From an uncultured Gammaproteobacteria bacterium (GTDB lineage Bacteria > Pseudomonadota > Gammaproteobacteria > Chromatiales > Chromatiaceae), in NCBI GenBank assembly GCA_963736235.1, contig CAVTOR010000032.1, forward strand, positions 109 to 64,108: a stretch of 64,000 nt of DNA. The letters are read 5' to 3'. This document shows, in pieces, positions 16,751-42,061 of the stretch. The notes beneath the pieces were generated by a model. That model made no database searches, had not been told where the DNA came from, and worked only from the letters and a program-made list of their open reading frames with translations. Position 1 is the first letter of the stretch. The number at the start of each line of letters is the position of its first letter. The position numbers and the translations under genes are program-made.

Positions 16751-16769
16751 TATACGCAGATAACGTATA
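16751..16769 (+). promoter_or_regulatory. second copy of the TATACG-N7-CGTATA palindrome, in the 105-nt divergent region between the AEP-helicase and higB copy 2
   Basis: Read directly from the sequence. Confidence 0.4.
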
Positions 16770-16778
16770 CTTCTGCCC

Positions 16779-20793: not shown

Positions 20794-20867
20794 GGCTGAG
20801 TGGCAGAGTGGTTATGCAGCGGCCTGCAAAGCCGTGTACCTCGGTTCGATTCCGGGCTCAGCCTCCA
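20794..20867 (+). tRNA. tRNA-Cys (GCA)
   Basis: Folded by hand. Acceptor GGCTGAG/CTCAGCC, anticodon loop CTGCAAA, T-loop GGTTCGATTCC, encoded CCA. Confidence 0.9.
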
Positions 20868-20947
20868 TTTCTTCCTCCGTGGTTCGTCCCGCCTGACCGG
20901 TAAGCGGTATCCGTCATCTTCATGGCGATACGCCGTCCAACACGCCC

Positions 20948-21033
20948 GCCCGGGTGGCGAAATCGGTAGACGCAAGGGACTTAAAATCCCTCGGCCTTTG
21001 GCCATGCGGGTTCGAGTCCCGCCCCGGGCACCA
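20948..21033 (+). tRNA. tRNA-Leu (TAA)
   Basis: Acceptor GCCCGGG/CCCGGGC, anticodon loop CTTAAAA, long variable arm, T-loop GGTTCGAGTCC, encoded CCA. Confidence 0.9.
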
Positions 21034-21410: not shown

Positions 21411-24400
21411 ATGACGATGCAGCAGTTGCAACCGATTGATGCAGAGAGCGAATCGGTCGATACGCCGGGACCCGCGCTCGTTTCCCTGGATGCATCCGAC
21501 GACGCCGCACCGCGCGGCGATTTCAAGTACCCCGGCATCGAGACCGTGATCCACGGCAACGGGGCGGTGGCTCATGTCATGGGGCACGTGTGCGGTGGGG
21601 TCATTGGCTACCCGATCACGCCGTCCACCGAGATCTCGGAGCTGTTCGAGGCCTTTCGCGCGCGGGGTGGCTGCAACGTCTGGGGCAAGCATCCCTTCTT
21701 CTTCGAGCCCGAGGGAGAACATTCGGCCCAGAGCGGCGCCATGGGGGCGGCGTTGACGGGCGGCAAGTACATCTCCAACGCCTCGTCGAGCCAGGGAATC
21801 CTCTACGGGCTGGAATCCCACTACGTGACCGTGGGGAAAAAGATCGGCGGCTTTGTGCTGCAGATCGCCGCGCGCGTCGTCTCCAAGCACTCCCTGAACG
21901 TCATGGCGGGGCACGACGACGTGTACGCGCTGCTGCCCTCGGGTTACACGGTCCTATTTGGCAGCAATCCCCAGGAGGCCGCCGATCTGGCCGCGATTGC
22001 CTACCGGGTCAGCGCTTTGTCGCTGATCCCGGTAGCCAATGCAATGGACGGTTTCGCGACCAGTCACATGCAGAGCGAGGCCCGCCTGCCGGAGCCCGAG
22101 CTGCTGAACGAGTTCCTGGGCGATCCGGCGGGCAGGATCAAGGCGCCGACGGTGGCCCAGGAGATGCTGCACGGCGCCAAGGGTCGGGTCTGCCAGCTGG
22201 AGCAGTACCTGGTCCGGCATCAAGGGGATATCGTGTCCGGCGATCTGGAGGCGCTGCGGGCATTTGTCGACGCCCGCGGTGATGAAATCGAAGGGGACAA
22301 TGCGGGCGCCATGATCCCACAGACCCTGCACTGGATACCCGACGAGCTGCGCGGGCAATGGCGCCGCCAGTGGCTCAATGCCCACGAACGAGGGACCCGC
22401 CAGCTGGTGCCCGCGCTGGTCGACGTCAACAACCCCGGTCTCACCGGTGGGGTGCAGAATCAGCCGGATTTCCAGGCCGGTTCCGTCGATCACAAGACGC
22501 ACTTCGCCAACGAGGTGCCGCGCTTCGTCAGGCAGGCGATGGTGGAATACGGAGCATTCACCGGGCGCTTCTATTCGCCGGTAAGGAGCTTCCTGGCCGA
22601 CGACGCCGATCACGTCATCGTTGGCCTGGGCTCCGTGACGGACGACGCCGAGGCGGTGGCCTCCTACCTGCGGGGACAGGGGAAAAAGGTAGGCGTCGTC
22701 TCCATCAAGCTGTTGCAGCCCTTCCCGGAGGGAGACGTCGTCGCGGCCCTGGCCGGGAAGAAGGCGGTGACCGTGCTGGAGCGCTCGGACGTCACCGCCC
22801 TGACCAACCTGGTCACCCAGGCCCTGTTCAAGGCACGAGAGAATGGCGATCTGATCCGCCACCAGGGAATCCCACCGATCAACAGCCTGCCCAAGATCAG
22901 CACTGGCATCTTCGGTCTGGGCGCCCATGATCTGCAGCCCCGTCACCTGATTGCTGCCTTCAAGAACATGGACAGCGCGCTCAACGTGCCATTCTTCTAC
23001 CTGGGCTCCCAGTTCTTCGCGAAGGACCCGTCGCCACGGGTCGCCGAGCTGCAGGACAGGCTGCGGGCGGCCTACCCGGAGACGGAGTTCATGGCGTTCG
23101 AGACGGAAGAAAACCCGAGCCTCCTGCCGCCCGGAGCCTTCCGGCTGCGGTTCCATTCGGTTGGCGGTTACGGCACCATCGCCACGGGTAAACTCCTCAC
23201 CGACATCTTGGCGGGATTGCTCGGCATGCATTCCAAGTCGGCCCCCAAGTACGGCTCCGAGAAGAGTGGCGCCCCGACGAACTTCTACATTTCCCTGAGC
23301 CCCGAGCCGATCAAGATCACGAACGCCGAGCTCGAGGACGTCGAGATCGTCGTCTCTCCGGATCACAAGGTGTTCAGTCACACCAGCGCCCTGCGCGGCT
23401 TGGCGGAAGATGGCACCCTGATCATGCAGTCGCACCACACCCCGATCGAGGTGTGGAAAGAGTTGCCGGCCCACGCCCGACGGACCATTCGGGACCGAAG
23501 AATCAAGCTCTACATCGTCGATGCCTTCGGCGTGGCCAAGAAGCACGCGCCCGCCCCGGACCTGGAGATCCGGATGATGGGCATCGCCTTCATCGGCGCC
23601 GTTTGCGGCCACGTGGACCGGATCGCCGCGGATGCCCCTATCGATACGCTCTTGGACAAGGTGCGCCGCCAGGTCACCAAGAAGTTCGGGGCCAAGGGCG
23701 ACGCGGTGGTCGAGAGCAACATGGCCGTCATCCGAGAAGGGCTGGAGGCCACGCGGCGGGTCGACTACCGCGATCCGGCCTTCGCCGAGGCGGAGCGGCT
23801 CGCGGCGGTGGATGGCGGCCCCGGCGTGGCGGTCTCCGCCGCCATGGTGAAGTCGGCCTGCGGCGCACCAACCTGCGGGGTCTTCGAGCGGGAGTACTAC
23901 AACGAGGTTTTGGCGGATCGTTTCTCGGACGGCACCATTGCCGAGGCCCCGGTCCTTCCAGGCACGGGGCTCTTCATGCCAGTGGCGAGCGCCGCCTGGA
24001 GAGACAAGGGCCTGTTCCGGCTTACGGTGCCGGAGTACACGGCGCACCTGTGCACCGGCTGCATGGAATGCGCCATGGTCTGTCCGGATGCGGCCATCCC
24101 GAACACGGTGCACGAGATCCACGACCTGCTGCTCGGCGCCATCTCCAGGCTTGACGTGACCGCGCAGCAAAAGACGCTCATGTCGAGCTATGTCTTCCCG
24201 CTGACCAAGACGATTCGCGACGCCTACCGCAGGCTGCCGAGCAAGGACCCCAAGCCCCTGCACGAGATCGCCGCGGAGGCCGTCGCGGACATCGACACGG
24301 AAAACGCATCCCTGCGGCGCGGCTTCGAGAAGATGCTCGAGGGCCTGACCCTCTATCCGGTGGCCAAGACGCGGCCCTTCTTCGATGCCATGGAGGGGAA

Positions 24401-26528: not shown

Positions 26529-26576
26529 GGTCTTCCGTGCGAGGTTCGAGCCATCTAAGGAAAACGAGGTAGCGCC

Positions 26577-29483
26577 ATGTCACAACCTTTCGACGAACCG
26601 TCCAAAAGGGTCGGAATTGGGGTGAGCTCGCCTCCGCCCTGTCCCTATGACCAGGGCGACGTGCAGCACTATTATCAGGCGAGTCGCGAGATCGAGGCCA
26701 GCCGGCACCGCATCGAGGACGCCAGGCAGGAGATCCGGGCGCTGGAGCACAGCGAGGCCGTCGAGCTGTTCCAGAAGCAGATCGGCCTGTTGCAAAGGCG
26801 TCTGGTCAATGACCCGCAGTTCTTTCGTCAGGTGTTCATCGCCGAGGGCACCAACGCGATTGCCTGGGAGTTTCAGCAGGAGGAGCTGAGCGGGGCCTTT
26901 ACCAAGATGCTCTGGAATCTGCTGCTCCGCGGGGACGACATGAGCGCCCTGCTGCAGCGGTTCCTCTGGAACATTCCGCTCAAGTTCAAACGCAAGTTCA
27001 TCCGCGCGATCGACGAGCATCTGTCCGACCGCTACCCGATGTTCCGAGGGCTCTCCCAGGGTTGGCCGGGGGAAAACAGCATCCCGCCCTACATCCGCCC
27101 GCCCGAGGAAAGGGCCAAGGACTTCGACCTGGTCAACCAGGGCTACCTCGGATACCTGGGGCTCGGCTACGACTTTCGCGAAGTGGAGCTGCTGGTCTGG
27201 CTGGAGGTGCTGCGCGACAAGCAGTGCGACGACCGCCCCTGCGAGATCGGTCTCCCGGTGATGGACCGCGGGGAGAACAAGGGGGGATGCCCGGTCAAGA
27301 TCCACATCCCCCAGGTCCTCCATCTAATGGGCGAGGGCAAGTTCAAGCAGGCCCTGCAGCTGATCAAGGAATCCAACCCGCTGCCCAACGTCACCGGCCG
27401 CGTGTGCCCGCAGGAGATCCAGTGTCAGGGGGTCTGCACCCACAACGCGCGCCCGATCGAGATCGGGCAGTTGGAGTGGTACCTGCCCCAGAGCGAGAAG
27501 GTCCTCAATCCGGAGGCGACCTTCGTGCTCCAGGACTCGGTCAACCCTTGGGCCAAGGCGGACAGGCCGCCCATCGCCATCGTCGGCTCCGGCCCCGCGG
27601 GCCTGATCAACGCCTATCTGCTTGCGAAGGAGGGCTATCCGGTCACCGTGTTCGAGGCATTTCACGCGCTTGGCGGCGTTTTGCGTTACGGCATTCCCGA
27701 ATTTCGCCTGCCCAACGAGCTGATCGACGACGTGGTGGCGAAGATCACCAGGATGGGCGGAAAGTTCGTGACCAACTTCATCGTCGGCAAGACCGCCACG
27801 CTCGAGGCCCTGAAGCGAGCCGGATTCTGGAAGATCTTCATCGGCACCGGCGCCGGGCTGCCGCGGTTCATGAACGTGCCGGGCGAGCACCTGCTCGGCG
27901 TCCTGTCGGCGAACGAGTTCCTCACCCGCGTCAACCTGATGCAGGGCCACAAGGAGGGTTACGAGACGCCGCTGCCGGAGACCCGTGACAAGGAGGTGAT
28001 CGTCATCGGCGGTGGCAATACCGCGATGGACGCGGCGCGCACGGCCCGGCGTCTTGGGGGCAAGGTGACCATCGTCTACCGTCGCACCCAGAACGAGATG
28101 CCGGTCCGGGTGGAAGAGCTGCACCATGCCCTGGAGGAGGGCATCCAGCTCAAGGCGCTCCGGGCGCCGCGGGAGTTCATCGGCAGCGACAAGACTCACT
28201 TCGTCACCCACGCCGTGCTGGACATCATGGAGCTGGGTGAGCCAGACGTATCCGGAAGGCGCAGTCCGCTGGTCACCGGCGAGACCGAGGAGATGCGGGT
28301 CGACCTGGTCATCATGGCGCTCGGCAATGCCTCGAACCCCATAGTCAAGGACGCCGAGCCGGACCTCAAGACCAGCAAGTGGGGCACCATCGAGATTCGC
28401 CCTGGCACCCACGAGACCTCGGTGGACGGCGTCTACACGGGCGGCGACGCCAACCGCGGCGGCTCGACGGCGATCAAGGCCGCCGGCGACGGGCAGGCTG
28501 CCGCCCGTGAGATCGCGGGCGAGATCCCCTTCTCCCTGAGCGAGATCAAATCCCTGGTCGCCAGCGCCGAGCGTTACACCAAGCTCGGCCAGGCAACCCA
28601 GACGATCGTCGAGAAGATCGATCTGGCCGAGGGCATCGTCGAGTTCGTGGTCCGGTCGCCGCTGGTCGCCAAGGCGGCGAAAGCCGGTCAGTTCGTGAGG
28701 GTCCTCGCCTGGGAGCAAGGCGAGTTGATCCCGCTGACCCTGGCCGACTGGGACGCCGAGGCCGGCACCATCGACCTGGTCATCCAAGGTCTCGGCAGCA
28801 GCTCGATGATGATGAACCGGATGGTCGTGGGCGACGCCTTCGCCGGCATCGCCGGCCCGCTGGGCCTGCCGAGCCAGCTGCACCGATACGAGAACGGCGA
28901 GACCGTTGTCTTCACCGCCGGCGGCGTCGGCCTGCCGCCCGTGTACCCGATCATGCGCGAGCACCTGCGCATGGGTAATCACGTGACCCTGATCGCTGGC
29001 TTCCGCACCGACAAGCTCAAGTTCTGGACCGGCGAGGGTGAACGCATCGGGCTGCTGCAGGCCGAGTATCCGGAACTGCTGGACGTGGTCTACACCAGCA
29101 ACGACGGCAGCTTCGGCGTCGAGGGTTTCGTTACCGGTCCTCTGGGGGAGATGCTCGAACAGGCGAACTCCGGTGCCGGTCGCGAGCTCGGGGAGGTCGT
29201 GACCATCGGGCCGCCGCTGATGATGCGCGCCGTCAGCGACCTCACCAAGGGCTACGGGGTGCGCACCGTAGCCAGCCTCAACTCCATCATGGTGGACGCC
29301 ACCGGCATGTGCGGCGCCTGCATGGTGCCGGTGATGCAGGAGGGGCGCTTGGTGCGCAAGCACGCCTGCATCGACGGTCCCGAGATCGACTCCCACATCA
29401 TCGACTGGGACAAGTTCCTGCCCCGGTTCCATCAGTTCAAGGCGCAGGAGGACCGCAACCGCCAGCGGCATGGATTAAGGTGA
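26577..29483 (+). CDS. GltD/NfnB-like NAD(P)H flavoprotein fused to a PyrK/NfnA-like FAD/[2Fe-2S] module, with a ~165-aa N-terminal extension of unknown type
   Basis: 'GRVCPQEIQCQGVC' (Fe-S), 'IAIVGSGPAGL' and 'VIVIGGGNTAMDAA' (two dinucleotide folds). Then 'GQFVRVLAW..IPLTLAD', 'VFTAGGVGLPPVYPI' and a terminal Cys cluster 'GMCGACMV...C'. Confidence 0.8.
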   Translation: MSQPFDEPSKRVGIGVSSPPPCPYDQGDVQHYYQASREIEASRHRIEDARQEIRALEHSEAVELFQKQIGLLQRRLVNDPQFFRQVFIAEGTNAIAWEFQQEELSGAFTKMLWNLLLRGDDMSALLQRFLWNIPLKFKRKFIRAIDEHLSDRYPMFRGLSQGWPGENSIPPYIRPPEERAKDFDLVNQGYLGYLGLGYDFREVELLVWLEVLRDKQCDDRPCEIGLPVMDRGENKGGCPVKIHIPQVLHLMGEGKFKQALQLIKESNPLPNVTGRVCPQEIQCQGVCTHNARPIEIGQLEWYLPQSEKVLNPEATFVLQDSVNPWAKADRPPIAIVGSGPAGLINAYLLAKEGYPVTVFEAFHALGGVLRYGIPEFRLPNELIDDVVAKITRMGGKFVTNFIVGKTATLEALKRAGFWKIFIGTGAGLPRFMNVPGEHLLGVLSANEFLTRVNLMQGHKEGYETPLPETRDKEVIVIGGGNTAMDAARTARRLGGKVTIVYRRTQNEMPVRVEELHHALEEGIQLKALRAPREFIGSDKTHFVTHAVLDIMELGEPDVSGRRSPLVTGETEEMRVDLVIMALGNASNPIVKDAEPDLKTSKWGTIEIRPGTHETSVDGVYTGGDANRGGSTAIKAAGDGQAAAREIAGEIPFSLSEIKSLVASAERYTKLGQATQTIVEKIDLAEGIVEFVVRSPLVAKAAKAGQFVRVLAWEQGELIPLTLADWDAEAGTIDLVIQGLGSSSMMMNRMVVGDAFAGIAGPLGLPSQLHRYENGETVVFTAGGVGLPPVYPIMREHLRMGNHVTLIAGFRTDKLKFWTGEGERIGLLQAEYPELLDVVYTSNDGSFGVEGFVTGPLGEMLEQANSGAGRELGEVVTIGPPLMMRAVSDLTKGYGVRTVASLNSIMVDATGMCGACMVPVMQEGRLVRKHACIDGPEIDSHIIDWDKFLPRFHQFKAQEDRNRQRHGLR

Positions 29484-31479: not shown

Positions 31480-34293
31480 ATGCCAATAATTTCCACGGCT
31501 TCACTGCGCTGCAGGATTCTTGCGGCTCTGTCGATAGCCTTCACATCGATTGCCGCCGCCGAGATGCGGTTTGAAGACGTGACATCGACAGCGGGAATTG
31601 CCGACACTGGCGAATCGGTCGGAGCCGCTTGGGCGGACGTAAACGGTGACGGTTTCCCCGACATTTGGCTTGACAAGCATCAATTCACGCCGACCGTCGT
31701 CTACCGCAATCGAGGAGACGGTACCTTTGTGGAGTTCATCGAGGGTTCCGACGAACCCTGGGGAATCCTCGATGTCTTCGAGGAACGTACGGACAGCCAT
31801 GGAAGGGCATGGGCGGATTTCGATAACGACGGCGACGACGATGTGCTGGAAGTCTCGGACCTCACTTGGGAAAATCTTTTCTGGGTCAATGACGGACTAG
31901 GTGCGTTCAAAGATCAGATGTCGGAGTTGGGATTCGAGTACCCGTTCGACAGCTCAATCTGCACACAAGCCGGCAACTGCAATCCATTTGGTCGTCGGAT
32001 GCCCTTGTGGCTGGACTACGACAGGGACGGCGATCTCGACGTAATGATCACGGCGATCGTCGATTACGACGAGCCCTTTTCGCCGACGGCCGTGTTCGAG
32101 CAAACCGTCTCGTCCGGCGGGGCACCCCTGTTCAGGTACGCGGAAGAGACTGGGGTGAACTATGCGGCGTCGGCTTTCTGCCGATACGCAGTCATGGCAG
32201 AGCTCTCCGGTGATGATTCCTTGGATGTCATCTGTGCCGACCAGGGCTCGGTCACTCGGGTGTGGGACACGAGTCAGTTGCCTTTCAGGGACCTGGAGAG
32301 CCAAATTGGCGGGGTTCTTTTTTCCACTGGAATCTCGGATCTTGCCGTCGGCGACTTCGACGGTGACTTGCGTGACGACTTGTTCGGCGTACGCGCGTCG
32401 TTCGGCCAAACGGTCGTTGATCAGGTGGGGCAGAGAACGCTTCACGCACGTTTCAATGCGGCCCCTGGAACCAGTGCAGCGCTATCCTTCCGCGCCGAGG
32501 GTGGGCTCCGGATCGACTTCGACTGGGCGACTAGGGTTGACTCGGTGTTTATCGGAAGCGACGGCGTTAATCCCCCAGCCAGCGCGGATATCAGCGCTTA
32601 CAACGGCTGGAGGAACCGTGTGCAACTCGACCTTTCCCCGGCTGACGTCGCCAATCATGGCATCGCAACGAGCACCGGGGGAGGTGTCTACATCGGCTTC
32701 GTGGACGGGCGCTGGATCATTCGATTCGAAACTGACCAAAGTTCGAGCGAAGTGCAGATCGTGGTGGAGGCCGACGGCACGATCTCGGACCTGATTGCGG
32801 ACCAGCCCTTCGCGGTCGGGCAGCCAGCCAACCGAAGACCTGTCCTTTTCACTCCCGATCAGGCAGGGGTTTTGACGGATGCCTCGAGCAAGATTTCGGG
32901 TCCGCAGAGCTCCTGCGCTTCCGCCGTAGCCGGAGATTTCGACAATGACGGTGACCTTGACGTCTTCGCCGGATGCAGCGGCATCGTCGCGAATCTCGAC
33001 AACATACTCTACGAGAACGATGGTCTGGGAAACTTCACCGCCATCACCGGCGATCTTCTCGGGGATGCGCGAGGCGATATCTACGGCCGCACCGACGCGG
33101 TGCTGACTGCCGACTACGATCATGACGGAAGACTGGACTTGTTCGTCACCAACGGTCAGCCGTTTCGCCCGTTTTCGTACGCTGCCAGGCAACAATTGTT
33201 CAAGAACGTGACCGCTAACGGTAATCATTGGATTGAGTTGGACCTAGATGGGGTTGCTTCGAATCGCGATGGAATTGGCGCGCGGGTATTCGCGTATACG
33301 CCAGACGGCAAGACACAGCTCCGGGAGCAAGGCAACGGGATGCATCGGGATGCCCAGAATTTTCGCCGGATCCATTTCGGCCTGGGAACTAACACCACGG
33401 TCAACCTCGAGGTGCACTGGCCGAGCGGGGTGGTCGACAACTTCAACGGCCTCGCCGTCGACCAGATCCACGACCTGGCGGAGGGCACGGGCGGTAGCAT
33501 CGGCTACGTGCTCCGCGTCGGCAACGTGTCCGTCAACGAGAGCGCGCGAGCCGCGCCGTCCACAGTAACCCTCTCGCCGGCGCCCCGTCCCGGGGAGTCG
33601 GTGGTGGTGAGCTACCAGACGCAGAACGGCAGCGCCCGGGCTGGCAGCGACTACACGGCCGTTTCGGGCACGCTGACCTTCACGGAGGGCCAGACGAAGA
33701 AGGCGGTCTGGGTGCCGATCACGGACGACGCGGTTGCGGAGAGCAGCGAGAGCTTCACTCTGAATGTTTCCAGCGCCGACTCCAACTCCGTGACGGCCAG
33801 CGTCACCATCCTCGATGACGACAGCGGCGGTGCGCTGCCGCGGCAGAAGGTCTACACGGTTTCTCCCTGCCGGGTGGTCGACACCCGCGGCGCCGACCCG
33901 CAGCTTTCCACCTTCTCGGGGGATCGTCTGGCACCCGGAGAGACCGTGTCGTTCTTCGTCACCGCGAACCTGATCAATGGTCAGGGCGGAGCGGGGAATT
34001 GCGGCATCCCCCCAGAGGCCACCGGCGTGTTCGCCAACGTCGTGGCGGTGCTTCCGCAAGGCAGCGCGACGAGCAACTATCTGGCGCTCTATCCCTCCGG
34101 CGGGAGCCGACCGCTCTCCTCGGCCATCAACTATTCAGCAGACATCACCGCCGTGGCCAACGGCGTGCTGGTTCCCCTGTGTGATCCGGCGGCGGCGACC
34201 TGCGACTATGACCTCGACGTCTACAACCACACCAGCCTCGCGGTGCACTTGGTGATCGATGTTACCGGGTATCTCGCGGTTCCAGCGCCCTGA
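31480..34293 (+). CDS. secreted FG-GAP/VCBS repeat - ASPIC/UnbV - Calx-beta protein with 4-Cys C-terminal domain (paralog A)
   Basis: Signal peptide. FG-GAP-type repeats 'WADVNGDGFPDIW', 'WADFDNDGDDDV', 'AGDFDNDGDLDVF', 'TADYDHDGRLDLFVTNG'. ASPIC/UnbV 'NHWIELDLDGVASNRDGIGARV...HFGLG...VHWPSG'. Calx-beta 'VVVSYQTQNGSARAGSDYTAVSGTLTF'. C-terminal 'SPCRVVDTR...NCGIP...PLCDPAAATCDYD'. Confidence 0.85.
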   Translation: MPIISTASLRCRILAALSIAFTSIAAAEMRFEDVTSTAGIADTGESVGAAWADVNGDGFPDIWLDKHQFTPTVVYRNRGDGTFVEFIEGSDEPWGILDVFEERTDSHGRAWADFDNDGDDDVLEVSDLTWENLFWVNDGLGAFKDQMSELGFEYPFDSSICTQAGNCNPFGRRMPLWLDYDRDGDLDVMITAIVDYDEPFSPTAVFEQTVSSGGAPLFRYAEETGVNYAASAFCRYAVMAELSGDDSLDVICADQGSVTRVWDTSQLPFRDLESQIGGVLFSTGISDLAVGDFDGDLRDDLFGVRASFGQTVVDQVGQRTLHARFNAAPGTSAALSFRAEGGLRIDFDWATRVDSVFIGSDGVNPPASADISAYNGWRNRVQLDLSPADVANHGIATSTGGGVYIGFVDGRWIIRFETDQSSSEVQIVVEADGTISDLIADQPFAVGQPANRRPVLFTPDQAGVLTDASSKISGPQSSCASAVAGDFDNDGDLDVFAGCSGIVANLDNILYENDGLGNFTAITGDLLGDARGDIYGRTDAVLTADYDHDGRLDLFVTNGQPFRPFSYAARQQLFKNVTANGNHWIELDLDGVASNRDGIGARVFAYTPDGKTQLREQGNGMHRDAQNFRRIHFGLGTNTTVNLEVHWPSGVVDNFNGLAVDQIHDLAEGTGGSIGYVLRVGNVSVNESARAAPSTVTLSPAPRPGESVVVSYQTQNGSARAGSDYTAVSGTLTFTEGQTKKAVWVPITDDAVAESSESFTLNVSSADSNSVTASVTILDDDSGGALPRQKVYTVSPCRVVDTRGADPQLSTFSGDRLAPGETVSFFVTANLINGQGGAGNCGIPPEATGVFANVVAVLPQGSATSNYLALYPSGGSRPLSSAINYSADITAVANGVLVPLCDPAAATCDYDLDVYNHTSLAVHLVIDVTGYLAVPAP
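33841..34293 (+). repeat. C-terminal-domain coding module, copy in paralog A (about 90% nt identity to 38151-38603 and 41618-42061, lower to 38704-39148)
   Basis: Aligned by eye, e.g. 'gtctacac[cg]gtttctccctgccgggt[ga]gtcgacacccgc'. Confidence 0.8.
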
Positions 34294-34661
34294 TCAGTTT
34301 TTGGGAAAGGAACACATGCGCACACGGACTCGATACGGACTCATCGGCACCCTCGACGACGAGGCCTGTATGCCATTGCCAAGTAAGGCGAGAGGGGAAG
34401 GGAAGCCACCCCGCCGATCGTTCGTAGCGATCGACTGCCGGCTGCCCATTCCGTTAGGATCAACGAGCCCGATGCCGGCCAAGGGTGCAGTCCCGAGACC
34501 TGCTTCGTTTCGGACGCGCCATGTCTGTTGATACGCCACGCCGCAAGGATCCAGCGCTCCCCGTCAGGGTTGCCGGATTCTGGTGCGTGCTCTCCCATAT
34601 ACGGGCTTGCGAGCCGACAAGTTCAACCCACCCGAGAGGCATCATCGGCTATCGTTCGTTT

Positions 34662-37600
34662 ATGGGTACCGAAGACTTCTGCGACTGTTTCCGTCATCGC
34701 CCTCACTTCGGGAGCAAAACACCGATCACGAAGTCTTTGATCGGCGTGAGTTGCGCGCTCTCGTTGGCGCTATCTCCGGCGGCGCTCGCTATCGAGTTCC
34801 TGGATGTTACGGCGACGGCCGGTCCCTTTCCTGTCACCGAATCCTGGGGAGCAACGGCCGTCGATGTGAACGGCGACGGCTGGACGGATCTTTGGCACAA
34901 CAGCCATAGATCCCGTCCGTACCTGTATCTGAACGAGGGGAATGGGGTCTTCTCCGATATCACCTTGGCGGCCGACAGGTCCGATACCTGGATCGGAGAA
35001 TACGGGGCGGATCAGCATGCGGGCACCTGGGGTGACTTCGACAACGACGGCGACCAGGACCTTTTCGTCGCGACCGGCATCAATTTCGACGCGCAGTTAC
35101 TGGTGAATCAGGGCGGCTACTTTGTCGATCAGACAGCGTACTACGGCATGCTCGTCGACTACGAGGGACAAGGGGCCTACTGGTTGGACTTCTCGGGAGA
35201 CGCGTATCTGGACGTCTTGTCCAGTCGGCCCGATGGGGGCAAGCTCTACGAACAGCTGCCGTTGGTCGGATTCAGGAACCGCACCCTCCAAACCGGATTC
35301 GAATGCCAGCGCGGATGGATCAACCTGGCGGATCTGTCCGTGGATGGCAAGCCGGATGTGTTGTGCGCGTTCACCGACGGCATCAAGTCCGTGTTCGACA
35401 TCTCCCCATATGCCACGTCGGATGGCGCCACACCCTTCGCCGACATCACATCGATTCTACCGGCTGTGCCGGCATTGACGGACACCGTTGCCGGGGACTT
35501 CGACGGCAACCTGCAGAGCGACATCGTGGGGTTGTTGGGGGTGCTCAGGAGAAATGGCGCGGACCTGGTGACGCCTGATCGCATCGAGGCGAATTTTCAG
35601 GTGTCGGCGCCCAAGCCATACGTGGGGTTCGATTTCGCCGGCGGCGATCAGCTAAAGATCACCGTCCAGTCCGTCCAGTTCAATCCTAACCACATCCTCA
35701 TCGGCAGCGCCGGGACAAGAGCGCCGGATAGTGTGTTCACCCTCGACAGTGCCGATGGTTCCACCCATGGGTTGGCGGAAGCGGATCCCAACGCGCAGAG
35801 CTTGAACATCGGCTACATGGGAGCAGGGCGCTGGGAGGTGCGGGTGTATCCCGATCCTGTCCGCAACTGGCGCGGCCACATCATCGTGGAACGCCTGTCC
35901 GGTGCCTCCTTTTCCGAGCTGGGTTATACCGGCCAGAGCCAATGGGATCTGCCGGCGCAACCGGTTCTGCTGATGAACGAGAACGGATTCTTTACCAATC
36001 AAGCGGCGACGAGAGGATTGGATCAGGCCGTGTCCTGCGCCAGCGCAGGGGTCGGTGATTTCGACAACGACATGGATCTGGACCTGTATTTCGTCTGCCA
36101 GACGGCCGCATCGAATATCGCCAATCGCCTGTACGAGAACCTCGGAGACGGAACATTCGTCGAGGTCGCCAGCGCCGGCGGGGCTATGGGACCGGTTGGC
36201 GGTTCGTCGGGTGACGCCGTGGGCGCCGGGGATTCTGTGGTGGTGGCGGACCTCGATGCTGACGGCTTTCTCGATCTTTTCGTGACCAACGGTCTCAATC
36301 TTGAACCTGTCAGGGTCGGCGGTCCGGTCAAACTCTACCGTAACGTTGGGAACTCGAACCGTTGGATCGAGCTTGATCTGGTAGCGACGAGCACTAGCCG
36401 AGATGCCCTCGGCGCCCAGGTGTTCGTGATGGCGGGTGGCGTGACCCAGTTGCGCGAGCAGGGGGGGGGGTACCATCGCTGGTCCCAGGACGACAAGCGG
36501 ATCCATTTCGGTCTCGGGCAGAACACCCTGGTCGAGACGATCACGGTACACTGGCCGAGTGGGGTCATCGACACATACTTTGACGTTCCAGTGAACGCCC
36601 TTTATCGCATCACCGAGGGTATGGGTGGACTTGCGGGCGTCCTGGAGGCGGTCAACCTCGACTCCGTCGGACCCCTGCCGAGCCCCGGTCTGGGTGACGA
36701 ATGCGGCGAGCCGGTCTACGATCACGAATACGGGCCGGCGCTGCTTCTGTGGCGCGACTGCCCAACTGATACTTGGCACGTCAGGGCAAAGGGTGGACGC
36801 AACGAGGATGCCGTGCGCTATTTCAGCGGCAGCCTCCAGGCGGACGCCGCCTTCCCGTCGGTGGCCGGGTTTCAGCTCGATGGCAACGACACCCTCTATG
36901 TGGGCATGGAAGACAGAATCGAGTTCTCGCTCGGCGTATGGTTTGCGAATGACAACGGGTTCGACTTCGATGCAACAGGGCTCACGTCGCTGTGTCTTGC
37001 GCTGGACGCTCCCGTGGGTACCAGAGTCCTGTTTGGCGTCGGGCGTTGGCCGGTCCAGGGTGCGCTTGACCTTCTGAGCCTGCGGCCGTGCGCCGGTCCT
37101 GCGTACACCCTCGATGTCCCCGATATCTCGGCTGCTGAAGGCGGAGGTGCCGCACGATTCACCGTCAACCTCACGCCCGCGCCCGGTGCCGGGGAATCGG
37201 TGGTGGTGAGCTACCAGACCCAGGACGGCAGCGCCGTGGCCGGCAGCGACTACACGACCATGGCCGGCACGCTGACCTATACCCAGGGACAAACGCAGAA
37301 GACGGTCTCGGTGCCGATCACCAACGACACCACCCCCGAGAGCAGCGAGAGCTTCACTTTGAATCTCACCAGCGCTGACACCAACACCGTGAACGCCAGC
37401 GCCACCATCCTTGACGACGACAGCAGCGGCACGCTGCCCGCGTGCGGTCAACCGGCCTACGACAATGCCACGGAGTCGGCGGTATTCGTGTGGAACGACT
37501 GCGGCACCAACGACTGGCACGTGCGGGTGACTGCCGGCGGTCAGACGCTGTCTTACCAGGGCACCCTGACCTCGGATCAGGGCTTTACTACCATGACGGC

Positions 37601-38603
37601 CTTCTCCTTCGAGAGTAACGACGTGCTGCCGCCGAGCTATGTCATGAACGTCGCCAACACCGGCCAGGACGGACTCGACTTCAGTTTCCCGGCCGGAGCG
37701 GCGGTATGCCTGACGCTGAATTCACCGAGCCTGCCGGTGTACGCCGGGTCGGATCGGGCACTCATGGACAACGCGGTGAGCCTACCCGACTTCGGATCCT
37801 GCGACCCCGGCGGCTCAATCCTCAGCGCCGGTGACGTGACGGTGACGGAGAATGCCGGAACGGCGGTATTCACCGTCAATCTCTCGCCGGCGCCCGGTGC
37901 CGGGGAATCGGTGGTCGTCGGCTACCAGACCCAGAATGGCAGCGCCGTGGCCGGTAGCGACTACACGACCACGGCCGGCACGCTGACCTATACCCAGGGA
38001 CAAACGCAGAAGACCGTCTCGGTGCCAATCACCAACGACACGACCCCGGAGAGCAACGAGAGCTTTGGTCTGCAACTGACCAGCGCCGACACTAACACGG
38101 TGAATGCCAGGGCCATCATCCTCGACGACGACAGCGGCGGTGCGCTGCCGCGGCAGAAGGTCTACACCGTTTCTCCCTGCCGGGTGGTCGACACCCGCGG
38201 CGCCGACCCGCAGCTTTCCACCTTCTCTGGGGATCGTCTGGCCCCCGGAGAGACGGTGTCGTTCTACGTCACCGGAAACCTGATCAACGGTCAGGGTGGA
38301 GCGGCGATCTGCGGCATCCCCCCCGAGGCCACCGGTGTGTTCGCCAACGTCGTGGCGGTGCGTCCGCAGGGCAGCGCGATCAGCAACTATCTGACGGTCT
38401 ACCCTTACGGCGAGAGCCGACCGCTCGCCTCGACCGTCAACTACCCGGCAGACATCACCGCCTTGGCCAACGGCGTGCTGGTGCCCCTGTGTGATCCGGC
38501 AGCAGCGACCTGTGACTACGATCTCAACGTCTACAACTACACCAGCCTCGCGGCGCACCTGGTGATCGATGTCACCGGATACCTCGCCGCGTCGGCGCCT
38601 TGA
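34662..38603 (+). CDS. secreted FG-GAP/VCBS - ASPIC/UnbV - (unknown module + Calx-beta) x2 protein with 4-Cys C-terminal domain (paralog B)
   Basis: Same architecture as A, plus a duplicated ~130-aa Cys-containing module, each copy followed by a Calx-beta domain. Start at ATG 34662 is provisional (long n-region before 'LIGVSCALSLALSPAALA'). Confidence 0.8.
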   Translation: MGTEDFCDCFRHRPHFGSKTPITKSLIGVSCALSLALSPAALAIEFLDVTATAGPFPVTESWGATAVDVNGDGWTDLWHNSHRSRPYLYLNEGNGVFSDITLAADRSDTWIGEYGADQHAGTWGDFDNDGDQDLFVATGINFDAQLLVNQGGYFVDQTAYYGMLVDYEGQGAYWLDFSGDAYLDVLSSRPDGGKLYEQLPLVGFRNRTLQTGFECQRGWINLADLSVDGKPDVLCAFTDGIKSVFDISPYATSDGATPFADITSILPAVPALTDTVAGDFDGNLQSDIVGLLGVLRRNGADLVTPDRIEANFQVSAPKPYVGFDFAGGDQLKITVQSVQFNPNHILIGSAGTRAPDSVFTLDSADGSTHGLAEADPNAQSLNIGYMGAGRWEVRVYPDPVRNWRGHIIVERLSGASFSELGYTGQSQWDLPAQPVLLMNENGFFTNQAATRGLDQAVSCASAGVGDFDNDMDLDLYFVCQTAASNIANRLYENLGDGTFVEVASAGGAMGPVGGSSGDAVGAGDSVVVADLDADGFLDLFVTNGLNLEPVRVGGPVKLYRNVGNSNRWIELDLVATSTSRDALGAQVFVMAGGVTQLREQGGGYHRWSQDDKRIHFGLGQNTLVETITVHWPSGVIDTYFDVPVNALYRITEGMGGLAGVLEAVNLDSVGPLPSPGLGDECGEPVYDHEYGPALLLWRDCPTDTWHVRAKGGRNEDAVRYFSGSLQADAAFPSVAGFQLDGNDTLYVGMEDRIEFSLGVWFANDNGFDFDATGLTSLCLALDAPVGTRVLFGVGRWPVQGALDLLSLRPCAGPAYTLDVPDISAAEGGGAARFTVNLTPAPGAGESVVVSYQTQDGSAVAGSDYTTMAGTLTYTQGQTQKTVSVPITNDTTPESSESFTLNLTSADTNTVNASATILDDDSSGTLPACGQPAYDNATESAVFVWNDCGTNDWHVRVTAGGQTLSYQGTLTSDQGFTTMTAFSFESNDVLPPSYVMNVANTGQDGLDFSFPAGAAVCLTLNSPSLPVYAGSDRALMDNAVSLPDFGSCDPGGSILSAGDVTVTENAGTAVFTVNLSPAPGAGESVVVGYQTQNGSAVAGSDYTTTAGTLTYTQGQTQKTVSVPITNDTTPESNESFGLQLTSADTNTVNARAIILDDDSGGALPRQKVYTVSPCRVVDTRGADPQLSTFSGDRLAPGETVSFYVTGNLINGQGGAAICGIPPEATGVFANVVAVRPQGSAISNYLTVYPYGESRPLASTVNYPADITALANGVLVPLCDPAAATCDYDLNVYNYTSLAAHLVIDVTGYLAASAP
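38151..38603 (+). repeat. C-terminal-domain coding module, copy in paralog B
   Basis: See 33841-34293. Confidence 0.8.
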
Positions 38604-38623
38604 TCAGCTTTTGGGAGAAACAC

Positions 38624-39148
38624 ATGCGCACACTGACTCGATATGGATTCATCAGCACCCTGCTGGCTTCGTTCACCTTCAACCCCGCGGCCCAGGCGGG
38701 TGGCCCCTACGTCATCCACACCGTGTCGCCGTGCCGTGCGGTCGACACCCGTACCGCCGACCCGCAGCTTTCCACCTTCTCCGGGGATCGCCTCGCCCCT
38801 GGAGAGACCGTGCCCTTCTTCGTGACCGGTGCCCTGATCACCGGCCAGGGCGGAGAAGCCGACTGCGGCGTGCCCGCCGCGGCAACGGGCGTGTTCGTCA
38901 ACGTCACGGCCGTGCGCCCACTGGGCAGCGGCACCAGCGGCTACTTGACTCTCTATCCCTATGGTGAGAGCCAGCCGACGGCCTCCACCATCAACTACAT
39001 GTCAGACGCCACCGCCGTGGCCAACGGCGTGCTGGTACCCCTGTGTGATCCGGCCGCAGCGACCTGTGACTACGATCTCAATGTCTACAACTTCACCAAC
39101 CTCGCGGTGCATCTGGTGCTGGACGTTACCGGGTACCTGACCGAATGA
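38624..39148 (+). CDS. stand-alone secreted copy of the 4-Cys C-terminal domain (174 aa)
   Basis: Signal peptide 'MRTLTRYGFISTLLASFTFNPAAQA'. The rest is collinear with the last ~150 aa of paralogs A, B and C, with all four Cys conserved. Confidence 0.8.
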   Translation: MRTLTRYGFISTLLASFTFNPAAQAGGPYVIHTVSPCRAVDTRTADPQLSTFSGDRLAPGETVPFFVTGALITGQGGEADCGVPAAATGVFVNVTAVRPLGSGTSGYLTLYPYGESQPTASTINYMSDATAVANGVLVPLCDPAAATCDYDLNVYNFTNLAVHLVLDVTGYLTE

Positions 39149-39207
39149 GGTTAATCGTGTCGACCATCTCAACTTCCTGCGGCGGTTCTCTGACGGACAA
39201 GCCGGAC

Positions 39208-42061
39208 ATGCCGAGGCGTTCACCGATGTTAAGCCGGGCTTGGCGCAGCAGGGCAGCCGTGAATGCCGCGGGCAGATCGCTGCTCAAGCTCACCCGCCGT
39301 CATGGGCTCATTGCCGGATCCGCCCTCCTGCTCTTTCTGCCGATCGCGGCCCAAGCCGCCATCGGCGCCAACCAGTTTGTGGAAGCCACCGCCGGAGGCG
39401 TGCCGGTGATCGACAGCCCCGGTGAGACCTGGGGTGCTTCCTGGGGAGACTACGACGCCGACGGCGATCCCGACCTGTGGATGGGCAAGCACCAGTTCAC
39501 CCCAAGCGCCCTGTATCGCAACAACGGCAACGGCAGCTTCACGAACGTCATCGACAGCGCCGTGATCAATGCCGTCGATCACTACACAGACGACACCCAT
39601 GGCGCGGCCTGGGCGGACTTCGACAACGATGGCGACCAGGACCTGATCGAGGTCTGCGGCGCCGGCGCCGGCGCGGTCGGCAGCGATCCGGTCATCAGCG
39701 ACGCCTGGCGCAACAACCTGTACATTAACGACGGCGGGACCCTCGCAGAGGACGCCCTGAGCTACGGCGAGATCGAATACCCCACCGGGCGCTCGCGCAC
39801 CCCCCTGTGGCTCGATTTCGACACCGACGGACTGCTCGACTTCGCCATCTCCGCCCTGCAGACGACTCCCGAGCAGGCCCCCTCGGCGGTGCTGCGCCAG
39901 GACCTGCTCGGCTTCTTCGATGCCAATGCCGCGGCGGGCTTCCCTGGCGGTAGCTGCCAGAACATGATGCTTGGACACCTCGGGCCGAACGGGGAGCCGG
40001 CGCTGATCTGCGGTGGCGGTGTGCAGATCCAGAGCATCCACGACATCTCCGCCGAACCCTTCATCGACCTGCGCCCGGTCCTCGGCAACGCCGTCTTCAA
40101 CGCCTTTGTCTACGATATGGCCATCGGTGACTTCAACGGCGATCTGCGCCCGGACATCGTCGCCGGCATCACGCCTCCCAGCCTCTCCACGGCGGTGCGC
40201 ATCGGGCCGGCCAACGACCGCATTCACGCCTATCTCGCCCCCTCCGTGACAGAGCGCGGGTTCTCCTTCACCGCCCCCGGCAACGTCGACATCGAATTCG
40301 GCTGGGAGACCGACGAGCAGGACATCTTCCTCGGCGCCAACGCCGTGCCCCCGCCGGCGGACGCCGATCAGGGGCTGCAGGGGCCCGATCGCTTCCCCCA
40401 CCACGTGCAGCTCACCCTCTCCAGCGCCAACTCCGATCATCTGGGCATGGCCGCCAACCGCAGCGCCGGGATCTACATCGGCTATGTCAGCGGCCGTTGG
40501 GAAGTGCGCGTGGTCAATGCCGGAGCCGATGTCAACGTCCTCGCGCGTGCCGGCGGCATCTCCGCCCCGGCCGCCATCGGCGATACCAGCCTCACCCAAG
40601 GTGCTCCCGTTGCCCCGGCGCTCTTCGAGAATCAGGCCGGGGAACTGGTCGCACGTGCCACGGGTGATGTCTTCCTCGATCCACTCGCCAGTGTCCAGAC
40701 CTACGCCCGATCCGTCGTGGCCGGCGACCTCGACAACGACATGGACCTCGACATTTACGTCGGATCCAGCGGGCGCGTGGCCAATGTACCCAACCTCCTG
40801 TTCGACAACCAGGGCGACGGCACCTTCCGCCTGGTGGGCAACGCCGCCGGCGCCGCCGGCGCCACGCCTCGGGCGCACCGACACCGTGACCCTGGTCGAC
40901 TACGATCAGGACGGTTTTCTCGATCTCTTCGCTACCCAGGGCAACTACCCCGCGCCCTTCTCCTACGACGCCGAGCAGCAGCTCTTCCGCAACCAGGGCA
41001 ACGCCAATCACTGGGTCCTGGTCAACCTGCGCGGGGTTGTCTCCAATCGCGACGGCGTCGGCGCCGTCGTCTACGCCAGCACCCCCGACGGCAAGATCCA
41101 GCTGCGCGAACAGGCCAACGGGGTTCACCGCTACGCCCAGGATTACGTGCAGACCCACTTCGGCTTGGGAGCGAATACCACCGTCGATCTCGAGGTGCAC
41201 TGGCCGAGTGGCATCGTCGAAAGCTTCAACGACCTGGCCGCGGATCAGATCTACACCCTGGTCGAAGGTACGAGCGGCGGCTACGCGCTCAGCGCCGGCA
41301 ACGTAACGGTGGACGAGGCTGCGGGAACGGCGGTATTCACCGTCAACCTCTCGCCCGCGCCCGGCGCCGGGGAATCCGTGGTGGTGAGCTACCAGACCCA
41401 GGATGGCAGCGCCCAGTCCGGGAGCGACTACACGGCCGTTTCGGGCACCCTTACCTTCACGGAGGGCCAGACAAAGAAGCCGGTCTGGGTGCCGATCACA
41501 GACGACGCGGCCGCCGAGAGCAACGAGAGCTTCAACCTGCAACTGACCAGCGCTGACACCAACACCGTGAACGCCAGCGCCACCATCCTCGATGATGACA
41601 GCGGCGGCGCGCTGCCGCGGCTGAAGGTCTACACCGTTTCTCCCTGCCGGGTAGTCGACACCCGCAGCGCCGACCCGCAGCTTTCCACCTTCTCCGGGGA
41701 CCGTCTGGCCCCCGGAGAGACCGTGTCTTTCTTCGTCACCGCAAACCTGATCAATGGTCAGGGCGGAGCGGCGAACTGCGGCATCCCCGCTGCGGCCACC
41801 GGGGTGTTCGCCAACGTCGTCGCGGTCCTTCCGCAAGGCAGCGCGATGAGCAACTATCTGACGGTCTATCCTTACGGCGAGAGCCGCCCGCTCGCCTCGA
41901 CCATCAATTACCCGGCAGACATCAATGCCTTGGCCAATGGCGTGCTGGTACCCCTGTGTGATCCGGGCGTAGCGACCTGTGACTACGATCTCAACGTCTA
42001 CAACTACACCAGCCTCGCGGCGCATCTGGTGATCGATGTCACCGGGTATCTGGCCGAATGA
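39208..42061 (+). pseudogene. FG-GAP/VCBS - ASPIC/UnbV - Calx-beta protein with 4-Cys C-terminal domain (paralog C), one frameshift near 40845-40870
   Basis: The N-terminal ~550 aa are in the frame of ORF 39145..41556. From 'LGRTDTVTLVDYDQDGFLDLFATQG' onward the protein is in the frame of ORF 40484..42061. The junction lies in a gccgccggc repeat. Start is ATG 39208 or 39226. Confidence 0.8.
41618..42061 (+). repeat. C-terminal-domain coding module, copy in paralog C
   Basis: See 33841-34293. Similarity to the region after the stand-alone gene continues ~80 nt past the stop (42062-42140 versus 39149-39230). Confidence 0.75.

What the first reader, a model, noticed from the sequence alone, without database searches (positions are those of the whole stretch)
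31480..42061. Cluster of three giant secreted FG-GAP/ASPIC(UnbV)/Calx-beta paralogs plus a small protein, all sharing one uncharacterised 4-Cys C-terminal domain
Four consecutive same-strand genes (937 aa, ~1313 aa, 174 aa, ~950 aa). The large ones combine integrin-like FG-GAP/VCBS repeats, an ASPIC/UnbV domain and Calx-beta domain(s). Each ends in a ~150-aa domain 'V-S-P-C-R-[VA]-V-D-T-R ... G-x-C-G-[IV]-P ... N-V-[VT]-A-V ... Y-L-T-[VL]-Y-P ... A-N-G-V-L-V-P-L-C-D-P-x-x-A-T-C-D-Y-D ... D-V-T-G-Y-L'. I recognise a similar 'R-V-x-D-T-R ... N-V-T ... G-[FY]-L-T ... P' pattern from unnamed repeats in secreted actinobacterial proteins, but I cannot name a family. Four conserved Cys fit two disulfides in an extracellular domain, perhaps for surface anchoring or ligand binding. 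No dedicated secretion or sorting genes are nearby.
Basis: partly seen in the sequence, partly recalled or inferred. Interest (0 to 1): 0.65.

Follow-up and report, generated by a model that had tools for sequence, protein, structure and literature searches.

The report
Unnamed three-fold C-terminal module on exoproteins
Three large exported calcium-binding propeller proteins and one small protein share a C-terminal domain from a very large, still unnamed family of beta-sandwich modules that seem to work in threes and probably tether secreted proteins to a surface sugar polymer or to each other.

Summary
Four same-strand genes (A 31480-34293, B 34662-38603, C 38624-39148, D 39208-42061) each end in a ~146-aa domain, here called X. 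The four copies are 74-86% identical and under purifying selection. D carries a 1-nt frameshift at 40865.

X matches nothing in Pfam-A, NCBIfam or PDB sequences. It is not a rarity: a profile finds 37,971 clusters in 1.84 billion representative proteins. AlphaFold predicts an eight-strand beta-sandwich with only weak jelly-roll fold matches.

In the highest-scoring relatives X forms contiguous C-terminal triplets (129 of 150 have three copies, 12 have six), and repeat positions are orthologous between proteins. In the single-copy lineages, Acidobacteriota and this gammaproteobacterium, arrays of X-tagged exoproteins are followed by a small X-only gene. FG-GAP propeller proteins are its most regular neighbour. 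X-only genes without such a neighbour lie in glycan-biosynthesis clusters.

Only the first Cys pair is family-wide. The second is a lineage-specific loop.

Best reading, at moderate confidence: X is a three-fold retention or assembly module, analogous to SLH or CWB2 triplets but unrelated to them. It is a new, uncurated domain family of a known functional kind.

The parts
31480..34293 (+). Gene A, 937 aa. Signal peptide, CRTAC1-like FG-GAP propeller, UnbV_ASPIC (33271-33468), Calx-beta (33523-33822), X domain.
33847..34290 (+). X domain of A (residues 790-937). Cys at 797, 841, 901 and 908.
34662..38603 (+). Gene B, 1313 aa from the ATG (ORF starts at 34485). Signal peptide, FG-GAP propeller, UnbV_ASPIC (36405-36605), two Calx-beta domains (37107-37421 and about 37824-38099), two copies of a second unnamed 4-Cys module, X domain.
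36702..37091 (+). Second unnamed 4-Cys module in B, copy 1 (CG.P.YD...W.DC.T..WH.R). No Pfam hit.
37443..37802 (+). Second unnamed 4-Cys module in B, copy 2. The same module ends the Chromatiaceae homologs P0241 and P0245-P0247.
38157..38600 (+). X domain of B.
38624..39148 (+). Gene C, 174 aa. Signal peptide plus X domain only (the X-only partner). Shine-Dalgarno GGGAGA lies upstream, 20 nt after the B stop. Cys at 37, 81, 141 and 148.
39208..42061 (+). Gene D, 950 aa if the extra C at 40865 is removed. Signal peptide, FG-GAP propeller, UnbV_ASPIC (41054-41257), Calx-beta (41291-41599), X domain.
40865..40865 (+). One extra C relative to the L003 ortholog. It splits D into two frames. Either an assembly indel or a very recent pseudogenisation.
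41624..42058 (+). X domain of D.

Best explanation
Shown:
- A, B and D are exported CRTAC1-type proteins built from an FG-GAP beta-propeller, ASPIC and Calx-beta, all calcium-binding modules. C is an exported protein made of the shared domain X alone.
- X is a branch of a very large unnamed family of 125-150-aa all-beta modules. This branch carries an extra disulfide loop.
- The family sits at the extreme C-terminus of very diverse exoproteins.
- In the multi-copy members X occurs as contiguous triplets whose three positions are individually conserved.
- In single-copy lineages X-tagged genes lie next to an X-only gene.
- X-only genes without an X-tagged gene beside them ('orphan' X-only genes) lie inside polysaccharide-biosynthesis clusters.

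Inferred:
- X works as a three-fold unit, a pseudo-trimer when tandem and a trimer when single.
- That unit binds a cell-surface or matrix glycan and so retains its cargo at the cell surface or in the matrix. This is the role SLH x3 and CWB2 x3 play in other bacteria.
- In this cluster the X-only protein C forms such trimers and can take up the single X domains of A, B and D. That would display three calcium-dependent propeller adhesins on the glycan layer.

I cannot separate the glycan step from the oligomer step with the tools at hand.
For: Family size and lack of annotation:
- 37,971 representative clusters at E<=1e-3.
- No Pfam, NCBIfam or PDB sequence hit.
- PGAP names carriers only by their other domains.

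Fold:
- The AF2 model has pLDDT 83 and eight strands.
- Fold matches are weak and go to self-assembling jelly-rolls: a trimeric phage cement protein, Ena pilin, capsid proteins and a collagen-like protein with a C-terminal head.

Working in threes:
- Of the top 150 hits, 129 have exactly 3 copies, 12 have 6 and 1 has 9. Several 6-copy proteins show two triplets split by a ~60-75-aa linker.
- The median gap between copies is 1 aa, and 122 of 129 triplets lie at the C-terminus.
- Repeat positions are orthologous between proteins: R1 to R1 in 124/129, R2 to R2 in 116/129, R3 to R3 in 107/129.
- Streptomyces and Curtobacterium proteins also carry three copies.
- One protein fuses a single X to a genuine C1q domain. 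C1q domains are known to trimerise.

Partner gene:
- 28 of 52 evaluable X-only genes have an X-terminal gene immediately upstream.
- FG-GAP-X proteins flank the X-only gene in 18 loci, 14 upstream and 4 downstream. In 2 more they lie nearby on the other strand.
- The same pairing occurs in L001, L002, L003, L081 and L093 with propeller, sulfatase and RHS/TSP3 cargo.
- X of large proteins scores best against the R1 profile in 95/116 cases. X-only proteins score best against R2 or R3 in 51/55.

Glycan link:
- X-only genes sit among GT2, GT4, methyltransferase, LPG_synthase_TM, Wzm/Wzt, sulfotransferase and sulfatase genes.
- Homologs of those genes occur in 31 of 80 loci.

The C-terminal slot:
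- CRTAC1 relatives carry T9SS CTD, RTX, dockerin or TSP3 modules. These are modules typically appended to the C-terminus, where the window proteins carry X.
Against: - There are no binding, localisation or oligomer data.
- The fold matches are weak (best E 8e-4, TM <= 0.6).
- The window cluster itself is not next to glycan genes.
- In the window lineage the large-protein and X-only copies all score best against R3, so the division of labour seen in Acidobacteriota is not visible here.
- Many single-X proteins have no X-only gene within 8 kb.
- The 80 loci were retrieved with the X-only protein as query and with one peptide pattern. Most come from related Acidobacteriota, so the counts are biased and not independent.
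- The top-150 list favours multi-copy proteins because it ranks by summed score.
- The attempt to model a triplet failed.
Confidence: 0.4

Rival explanations
1. X is purely a protein-protein assembly module, either a C1q/TNF-like trimeriser or a dockerin-like connector. It joins X-tagged exoproteins and the X-only subunit into multi-protein complexes or fibres and binds no glycan.
For: - Triplet organisation and position-specific repeats.
- Arrays of X-tagged genes plus one X-only gene.
- Fold matches go to self-assembling jelly-rolls.
- Some CRTAC1 relatives carry a dockerin.
- An X-C1q fusion exists.
Against: - It does not explain why orphan X-only genes sit inside glycosyltransferase and Wzm/Wzt clusters.
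- hhalign finds no homology between X and a C1q domain.
- There are no oligomer data.
Confidence: 0.22
2. X is a substrate-targeting carbohydrate-binding module (CBM-like). It directs enzymes and adhesins to an environmental polymer rather than to the producer's own surface. X-only proteins are soluble lectins.
For: - X is attached to sulfatase, metalloproteases, cutinase, GSDH, and BNR or BACON proteins.
- A weak profile hit goes to a 127-aa PDB chain annotated as agarase (E 0.2), and a CBM70 appears among the fold matches.
- The predicted fold is a beta-sandwich.
Against: - Many cargo proteins are not enzymes.
- No carbohydrate-binding-module family appeared among the Pfam matches listed.
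- The strict triplet with orthologous positions is unusual for CBMs.
- X-only genes lie in glycan-biosynthesis loci, not degradation loci.
Confidence: 0.15
3. X is a C-terminal secretion or sorting signal domain, functionally like the T9SS CTD. An unidentified export or attachment machinery would recognise it.
For: - X lies at the extreme C-terminus in most proteins.
- Cargo is very diverse and genomes hold many paralogs.
- T9SS CTD and RTX modules, typically C-terminal, occur in CRTAC1 relatives.
Against: - X is found in single-membrane Actinomycetota as well as double-membrane Acidobacteriota and Gammaproteobacteria.
- Triplets can be N-terminal or internal.
- A 375-aa triple module is large for a signal.
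- X-only proteins have their own signal peptides.
- No conserved machinery gene was found in the neighbourhoods.
- PF18962 does not hit X.
Confidence: 0.08
4. X is a glycosylation acceptor or carrier domain. The nearly invariant N-x-T would be a sequon modified by the neighbouring glycosyltransferase or GT-C-like membrane proteins.
For: - N93 is invariant and T95 nearly invariant in the family alignment.
- GT2, LPG_synthase_TM and DUF2079 genes lie next to X-only genes.
Against: - A, B and D read N-V-V, not N-x-T.
- A conserved Asn/Thr pair in a beta-sandwich is often structural.
- There is no direct evidence.
Confidence: 0.05

Closest known systems
SLH-domain triplets and CWB2 triplets (cell-wall glycan anchors of Firmicutes and other bacteria)
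   Same: Three tandem copies sit at a terminus of many unrelated exoproteins, and single-copy variants exist. From general knowledge, those triplets fold as pseudo-trimers that bind a secondary cell-wall polysaccharide made by nearby genes. X shows the triplet, the terminal position, the diverse cargo and the glycan-gene neighbourhood.
   Different: There is no sequence match. X is predicted all-beta, whereas SLH is helical and CWB2 is alpha/beta. The taxa differ (Acidobacteriota, Actinomycetota, some Proteobacteria). No ligand is known. The resemblance is an analogy only.
C1q/TNF-like jelly-roll trimerisation heads (gC1q, BclA C-terminal domain, Pgp3 C-terminal domain)
   Same: A C-terminal beta-sandwich of about 130 aa on modular secreted proteins, with tandem genes whose products could heterotrimerise. 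Weak fold matches go to Pgp3 and to a collagen-like viral protein. X is found fused to a real C1q domain.
   Different: The Pfam C1q and BclA_C models do not hit X. hhalign of X against a C1q domain gives probability 0.1. The model has eight strands, not ten.
CRTAC1 / ASPIC-UnbV family proteins (the N-terminal two thirds of A, B and D)
   Same: FG-GAP propeller plus UnbV_ASPIC. There are more than 5,300 relatives, and NCBI names some of them 'CRTAC1 family protein'.
   Different: Of the 120 best relatives only the window protein itself carries X. Other relatives carry different accessory modules, such as T9SS CTD, RTX, dockerin, TSP3 or cadherin/PKD.
Vibrio cholerae matrix proteins Bap1/RbmC (beta-propeller plus lectin domain binding the Vibrio exopolysaccharide)
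   Same: From general knowledge these are secreted propeller proteins carrying a beta-sandwich lectin module that ties them to the cell's own exopolysaccharide. The architectural logic matches what is proposed for A, B and D.
   Different: No homology was tested or expected. Their lectin module is a beta-prism, not X, and they have no X-only partner gene.
T9SS C-terminal domain (PF18962)
   Same: A C-terminal beta-sandwich tag on diverse exoproteins. It also occurs in CRTAC1 relatives, in Bacteroidota-type architectures.
   Different: No sequence match. X is larger, comes in triplets, occurs in single-membrane bacteria, and exists as a stand-alone secreted protein.

Membership tests
CRTAC1 / ASPIC-UnbV proteins (N-terminal parts of A, B, D) | FG-GAP/VCBS repeats forming a propeller, followed by a UnbV_ASPIC domain | tested here: met
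   FG-GAP_3 scores 100, 76 and 72 bits. UnbV_ASPIC scores 55, 58 and 52 bits. All exceed the Pfam cut-offs. Homologs are named CRTAC1 family protein.
Calx-beta domain (PF03160) | Pfam model match above the gathering score | tested here: met
   A scores 71.6 bits, B 140 bits over two copies, and D 81 bits.
Any Pfam-A or NCBIfam family (for domain X) | Model match to the C-terminal ~146 aa | tested here: not met
   No hit for protein C. The 58 aligned family members give only scattered noise hits (best E 0.012) at a limit of E<=1. Nine further relatives, including triple-copy proteins, were scanned against NCBIfam only and gave only noise outside X.
Any solved structure (for domain X) | Sequence or profile match to a PDB chain, or a confident fold match | tested here: not met
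   The best phmmer hit has E 1.3 and the best profile hit E 0.2. Foldseek against PDB gives nothing at E<=0.001 and a best TM of about 0.5.
C1q/TNF-like superfamily (for domain X) | Detectable homology to C1q, a ten-strand jelly-roll, and a trimer | tested here: inconclusive
   PF00386 does not hit X. hhalign gives probability 0.1. Fold matches are only weak. The oligomeric state cannot be tested here.
SLH (PF00395) and CWB2 (PF04122) anchors | Sequence match and an alpha or alpha/beta fold | tested here: not met
   No Pfam hit. The model is all-beta. Only the triplet arrangement is shared.
T9SS CTD (PF18962) | Model match at the extreme C-terminus, with a T9SS present | tested here: not met
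   No hit in A-D. X also occurs in Actinomycetota.
Polymorphic toxin / RHS cassette systems | Conserved N-terminal region, variable C-terminal toxin, downstream immunity gene and orphan cassettes | tested here: not met
   The pattern here is the opposite: variable N-terminal parts and a conserved C-terminal X. The downstream small gene has its own signal peptide and forms its own conserved clade.
   C37 and C81 are both present in 690 domains, both absent in 73, and only one is present in 4. That is strong indirect support. The C141/C148 pair lies in one lineage-specific loop. No coordinates or chemistry were available.

The most novel reading that the evidence does not exclude
X defines an unrecognised, widespread surface-display system of soil bacteria (Acidobacteriota, Actinomycetota, some Proteobacteria). 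A three-fold jelly-roll anchor would bind a dedicated, possibly methylated or sulfated, surface glycan made by the adjacent glycosyltransferase cluster. In single-copy lineages, cargo such as A, B and D would be loaded onto that glycan by heterotrimerising with the X-only subunit.
Probability: 0.2. Interest if true: 0.8.

Novelty: new variant of a known kind. Interest (0 to 1): 0.58.

Why it matters
About 38,000 representative protein clusters carry a module that no curated library queried here names. That leaves the C-terminal 125-400 residues of very many secreted proteases, sulfatases, dehydrogenases, adhesins and RHS proteins unannotated. These proteins come from Acidobacteriota and Actinomycetota, two of the dominant soil phyla.

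If X is the surface or matrix retention module of these bacteria, three things would follow:
- It would explain how they keep exoenzymes close to the cell.
- It would provide a display tag for organisms that are hard to study.
- It would add a third, structurally unrelated case of the 'three repeats bind the wall glycan' solution known from SLH and CWB2.

Even on the minimal reading, the family deserves a Pfam entry and a solved structure.

Tried and rejected
- AF2 on a triple-copy protein (P0225) as a single sequence failed, with pLDDT 31.6. That used the last structure job, so the pseudo-trimer could not be modelled.
- The last homolog search, seeded with the C1q domain fused to X in L087, returned nothing.
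- hhalign of the X profile against that C1q domain was negative.
- The phage collection has no match.
- Literature searches found nothing on the domain. I searched motif strings and combinations of ASPIC, UnbV, FG-GAP, Acidobacteria and jelly-roll.
- The first all-vs-all neighbour clustering timed out.
- The second run gave a 43-ORF family without X in 23 loci. Its members have no Pfam hit and are probably shadow ORFs of GC-rich DNA, so I dropped it.
- I rejected the polymorphic-toxin or orphan-cassette reading. Here the C-terminus is conserved and the N-termini vary, and the small gene has its own signal peptide and forms its own clade.
- I rejected recent local duplication as the origin of C. 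C is 83-86% identical to the X-only proteins of three other loci but only 75-78% identical to the neighbouring large-protein X domains.
- The promoter and terminator scan of the cluster was uninformative.
Full report
**1. The observation**

The region holds four consecutive + strand genes.

- A runs 31480-34293 and encodes 937 aa.
- B lies in ORF 34485-38603.
- C lies in ORF 38600-39148. Its ATG at 38624 has GGGAGA upstream and follows the B stop by 20 nt.
- D is split between two frames. Aligned with the ortholog in a related MAG (L003), the window has one extra C at 40865 in GCCA[C]GCCTCGG, and L003 keeps one frame there. Without that base D, from 39208, is 950 aa.

L003 has frameshifts of its own elsewhere in A and D. 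An assembly indel is therefore at least as likely as a pseudogene.

Pfam confirms FG-GAP/FG-GAP_3, UnbV_ASPIC and Calx-beta, with two Calx-beta domains in B. All four N-termini read as Sec signal peptides (sequence).

The last ~146 residues are 74-86% identical to the copy in A, with four invariant Cys. The only correction is the frameshift in D.

**2. The shared domain (X) is unnamed but very common**

Protein C and 58 aligned relatives hit nothing meaningful in Pfam-A, NCBIfam or PDB sequences. Nine further relatives, including triple-copy proteins, hit nothing meaningful in NCBIfam.

A word-indexed search found 80 relatives. Nearly all are 150-180-aa secreted 'hypothetical proteins'.

An exhaustive profile search of 1.84 billion representative proteins found 37,971 clusters at E<=1e-3 and 12,660 at E<=1e-30.

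In RefSeq plasmids the carriers are annotated only by their other domains: PKD, RHS, cutinase, LamG or hypothetical. None occurs in phage genomes.

**3. Fold**

AlphaFold2 with the 58-sequence alignment gives pLDDT 83 and eight beta-strands. The low-confidence stretch is the lineage-specific GQGG loop.

Foldseek finds nothing at E<=0.001 in the PDB. The weak matches (TM 0.3-0.55) go to jelly-roll capsid proteins, a trimeric phage cement protein, the Ena pilin and Pgp3. In BFVD the top matches are a collagen-triple-helix protein, small phage jelly-rolls and tail fibres.

I read this as a jelly-roll-like sandwich without a close solved relative.

**4. Cysteines**

Across 767 distinct domains, C37 and C81 (protein C numbering) are both present in 690, both absent in 73, and singly present in 4. 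That is what a disulfide predicts.

The second pair, in P-L-C-D-P-x5-C, occurs in only 23 of 779 instances. These are the window lineage plus two acidobacterial loci. '4-Cys' therefore describes a sub-branch, not the family.

**5. X works in threes**

- Of the 150 best profile hits, 129 have exactly three copies, 12 have six and 1 has nine. Several six-copy proteins show two triplets split by a ~60-75-aa linker. Copies abut, with a median gap of 1 aa. In 122 of 129 cases the triplet ends the protein.
- Each repeat position finds the same position as its best match in other proteins: R1 in 124/129, R2 in 116/129, R3 in 107/129. The triplet is therefore an old, fixed unit.
- A Streptomyces PKD protein and a Curtobacterium 'cutinase family protein' also carry three copies.
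- One protein in L087 fuses a single X to a genuine C1q domain, at 28.5 bits against a cut-off of 23.7. C1q domains are known to trimerise.

The top-150 list is ranked by summed score, which favours multi-copy proteins. The excess of 3 and 6 over 4 and 5 within that list is still clear.

**6. A conserved gene arrangement**

A genome scan returned 80 loci. Three are from an uncultured gammaproteobacterial MAG and are the closest relatives. L003 is syntenic with the window but lacks B. The rest are mostly Thermoanaerobaculia, Holophagales and Vicinamibacteria.

In these lineages large proteins carry one X at the very C-terminus. They lie in same-strand arrays of one to five genes, usually closed by a small gene for signal peptide plus X only.

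- 28 of 52 evaluable small genes have an X-terminal gene directly upstream.
- Cargo is diverse: reprolysin-like proteases, glucose/sorbosone dehydrogenases, a P-domain/DUF11 protein, FG-GAP propellers and sulfatase.
- The most regular neighbour is an FG-GAP propeller with X. It lies directly upstream of the small gene in 14 loci and directly downstream in 4. In 2 more it lies nearby on the other strand. That is the architecture of the window cluster.
- In the window lineage the pair recurs with a propeller (L001), a sulfatase (L002), an RHS/TSP3 protein (L093) and an unannotated 387-aa protein (L081).

C is closer to those other X-only proteins (83-86%) than to the X domains next to it (75-78%). 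It is therefore a maintained gene, not a fresh local duplicate.

**7. Link to glycan synthesis**

X-only genes without an X-tagged neighbour sit inside clusters of GT2, GT1/GT4, methyltransferase, LPG_synthase_TM and epimerase genes. Other such contexts hold a GT2-sulfotransferase with a sulfatase. A two-copy protein lies beside Wzm/Wzt and Wzy_C.

Homologs of these genes occur in 31 of the 80 loci, including nearly all loci with an orphan small gene.

The window cluster itself lies between oxidoreductase genes and shows no such neighbours.

**8. The large proteins**

The N-terminal 760 aa of A has more than 5,363 relatives, the CRTAC1/ASPIC-UnbV family. Among the best 120 only the window's own protein carries X. 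Others carry T9SS CTD, RTX repeats, dockerin, TSP3 or cadherin/PKD modules. In these proteins C-terminal extensions are commonly secretion, anchoring or assembly modules.

A, B and D are about 32% identical in the propeller but 75-91% identical in the C-terminal cassette. Synonymous divergence (dS) between the X domains of A, B and D is only 0.24-0.32. The Calx-beta-plus-X cassette has therefore been exchanged or homogenised among them.

**9. Mechanism**

The facts that need explaining are these:
- the terminal position on unrelated exoproteins;
- the fixed triplets;
- single-copy lineages that keep an X-only gene beside the cargo genes;
- X-only genes inside glycan-biosynthesis loci.

The best single account is a three-fold module that binds a surface or matrix glycan and retains cargo there. 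This is the role SLH and CWB2 triplets play elsewhere, here with an unrelated all-beta fold. The X-only protein would form the trimer and admit single-X cargo.

One further result fits this account. In Acidobacteriota, the X of large proteins resembles triplet position 1 (95/116), and X-only proteins resemble positions 2 or 3 (51/55). The score differences are small, and the pattern is absent in the window lineage.

I give this account 0.4. The rivals are:
- pure protein-protein assembly, 0.22;
- a substrate-targeting CBM, 0.15;
- a sorting signal, 0.08;
- a glycosylation acceptor, 0.05.

None of the inferred steps (oligomer, ligand, localisation) could be tested with the tools left.

**10. 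Verdict**

It is not a curiosity of this cluster. It is a lineage-specific form of one of the larger unannotated extracellular domain families, with a recognisable genomic grammar.

I class it as a new variant of a known kind, namely accessory C-terminal retention or assembly modules. Interest is 0.58.

Noticed in passing
window 36702-37091 and 37443-37802 (gene B): B holds two copies of a second unnamed ~130-aa module with four Cys (CG.P.YD...W.DC.T..WH.R..GG). It has no Pfam hit.
   Followed up: partly
window 40865: A single extra C relative to the L003 ortholog frameshifts gene D. The related MAG has different frameshifts in its A and D orthologs, which suggests long-read indel errors rather than real pseudogenes.
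   Followed up: yes
window 33085-34290, 37680-38600, 40871-42058: A, B and D are mosaics. Their propeller halves are about 32% identical, but the C-terminal cassette (Calx-beta plus X, and from residue 536 onward for the A/D pair) is 75-91% identical, with dS of 0.24-0.32 in the X domains. This points to recombination or gene conversion of the cassette.
   Followed up: partly
window 14187-16673 (- strand), with 12000-18000 and 20794-21033: An 828-aa protein carries an AEP-TOTE primase domain plus ResIII/DEAD helicase domains (TOTE conflict system). It lies in a lower-GC stretch (0.58 against about 0.65) a few kb from tRNA-Cys and tRNA-Leu. This may be a genomic island.
   Followed up: no
L087 4162-5349 (- strand): A secreted protein has an N-terminal ~90-aa region that was not analysed, then one X domain, then a genuine C1q domain (PF00386, above the cut-off). 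In the same locus lie a two-copy X protein, another X-terminal protein, a sulfatase and Wzm/Wzt O-antigen-type genes.
   Followed up: partly
protein C residues 93-95 (window 38900-38908) and the family alignment A2: N93 is invariant and T95 nearly invariant in the family, which forms an N-x-T sequon. A, B and D have N-V-V instead. X-only genes often lie next to GT2, LPG_synthase_TM or DUF2079 membrane-protein genes, so glycosylation of X is conceivable.
   Followed up: no
L003 against window 34294-38603: The syntenic locus in the related MAG has A, C and D but no B. B is therefore an extra paralog in the window's genome, or it is missing from that MAG assembly.
   Followed up: partly
window 21411-29483: Directly upstream of the cluster lie two very large fused oxidoreductase genes. 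One encodes a 1705-aa POR/TPP/4Fe-4S protein. The other encodes a 968-aa protein with Pyr_redox_2, Fer4_20 and DHODB Fe-S domains. The second, and the gene downstream of the cluster, are conserved in L003; L003 does not reach the first. They appear unrelated to the cluster.
   Followed up: no
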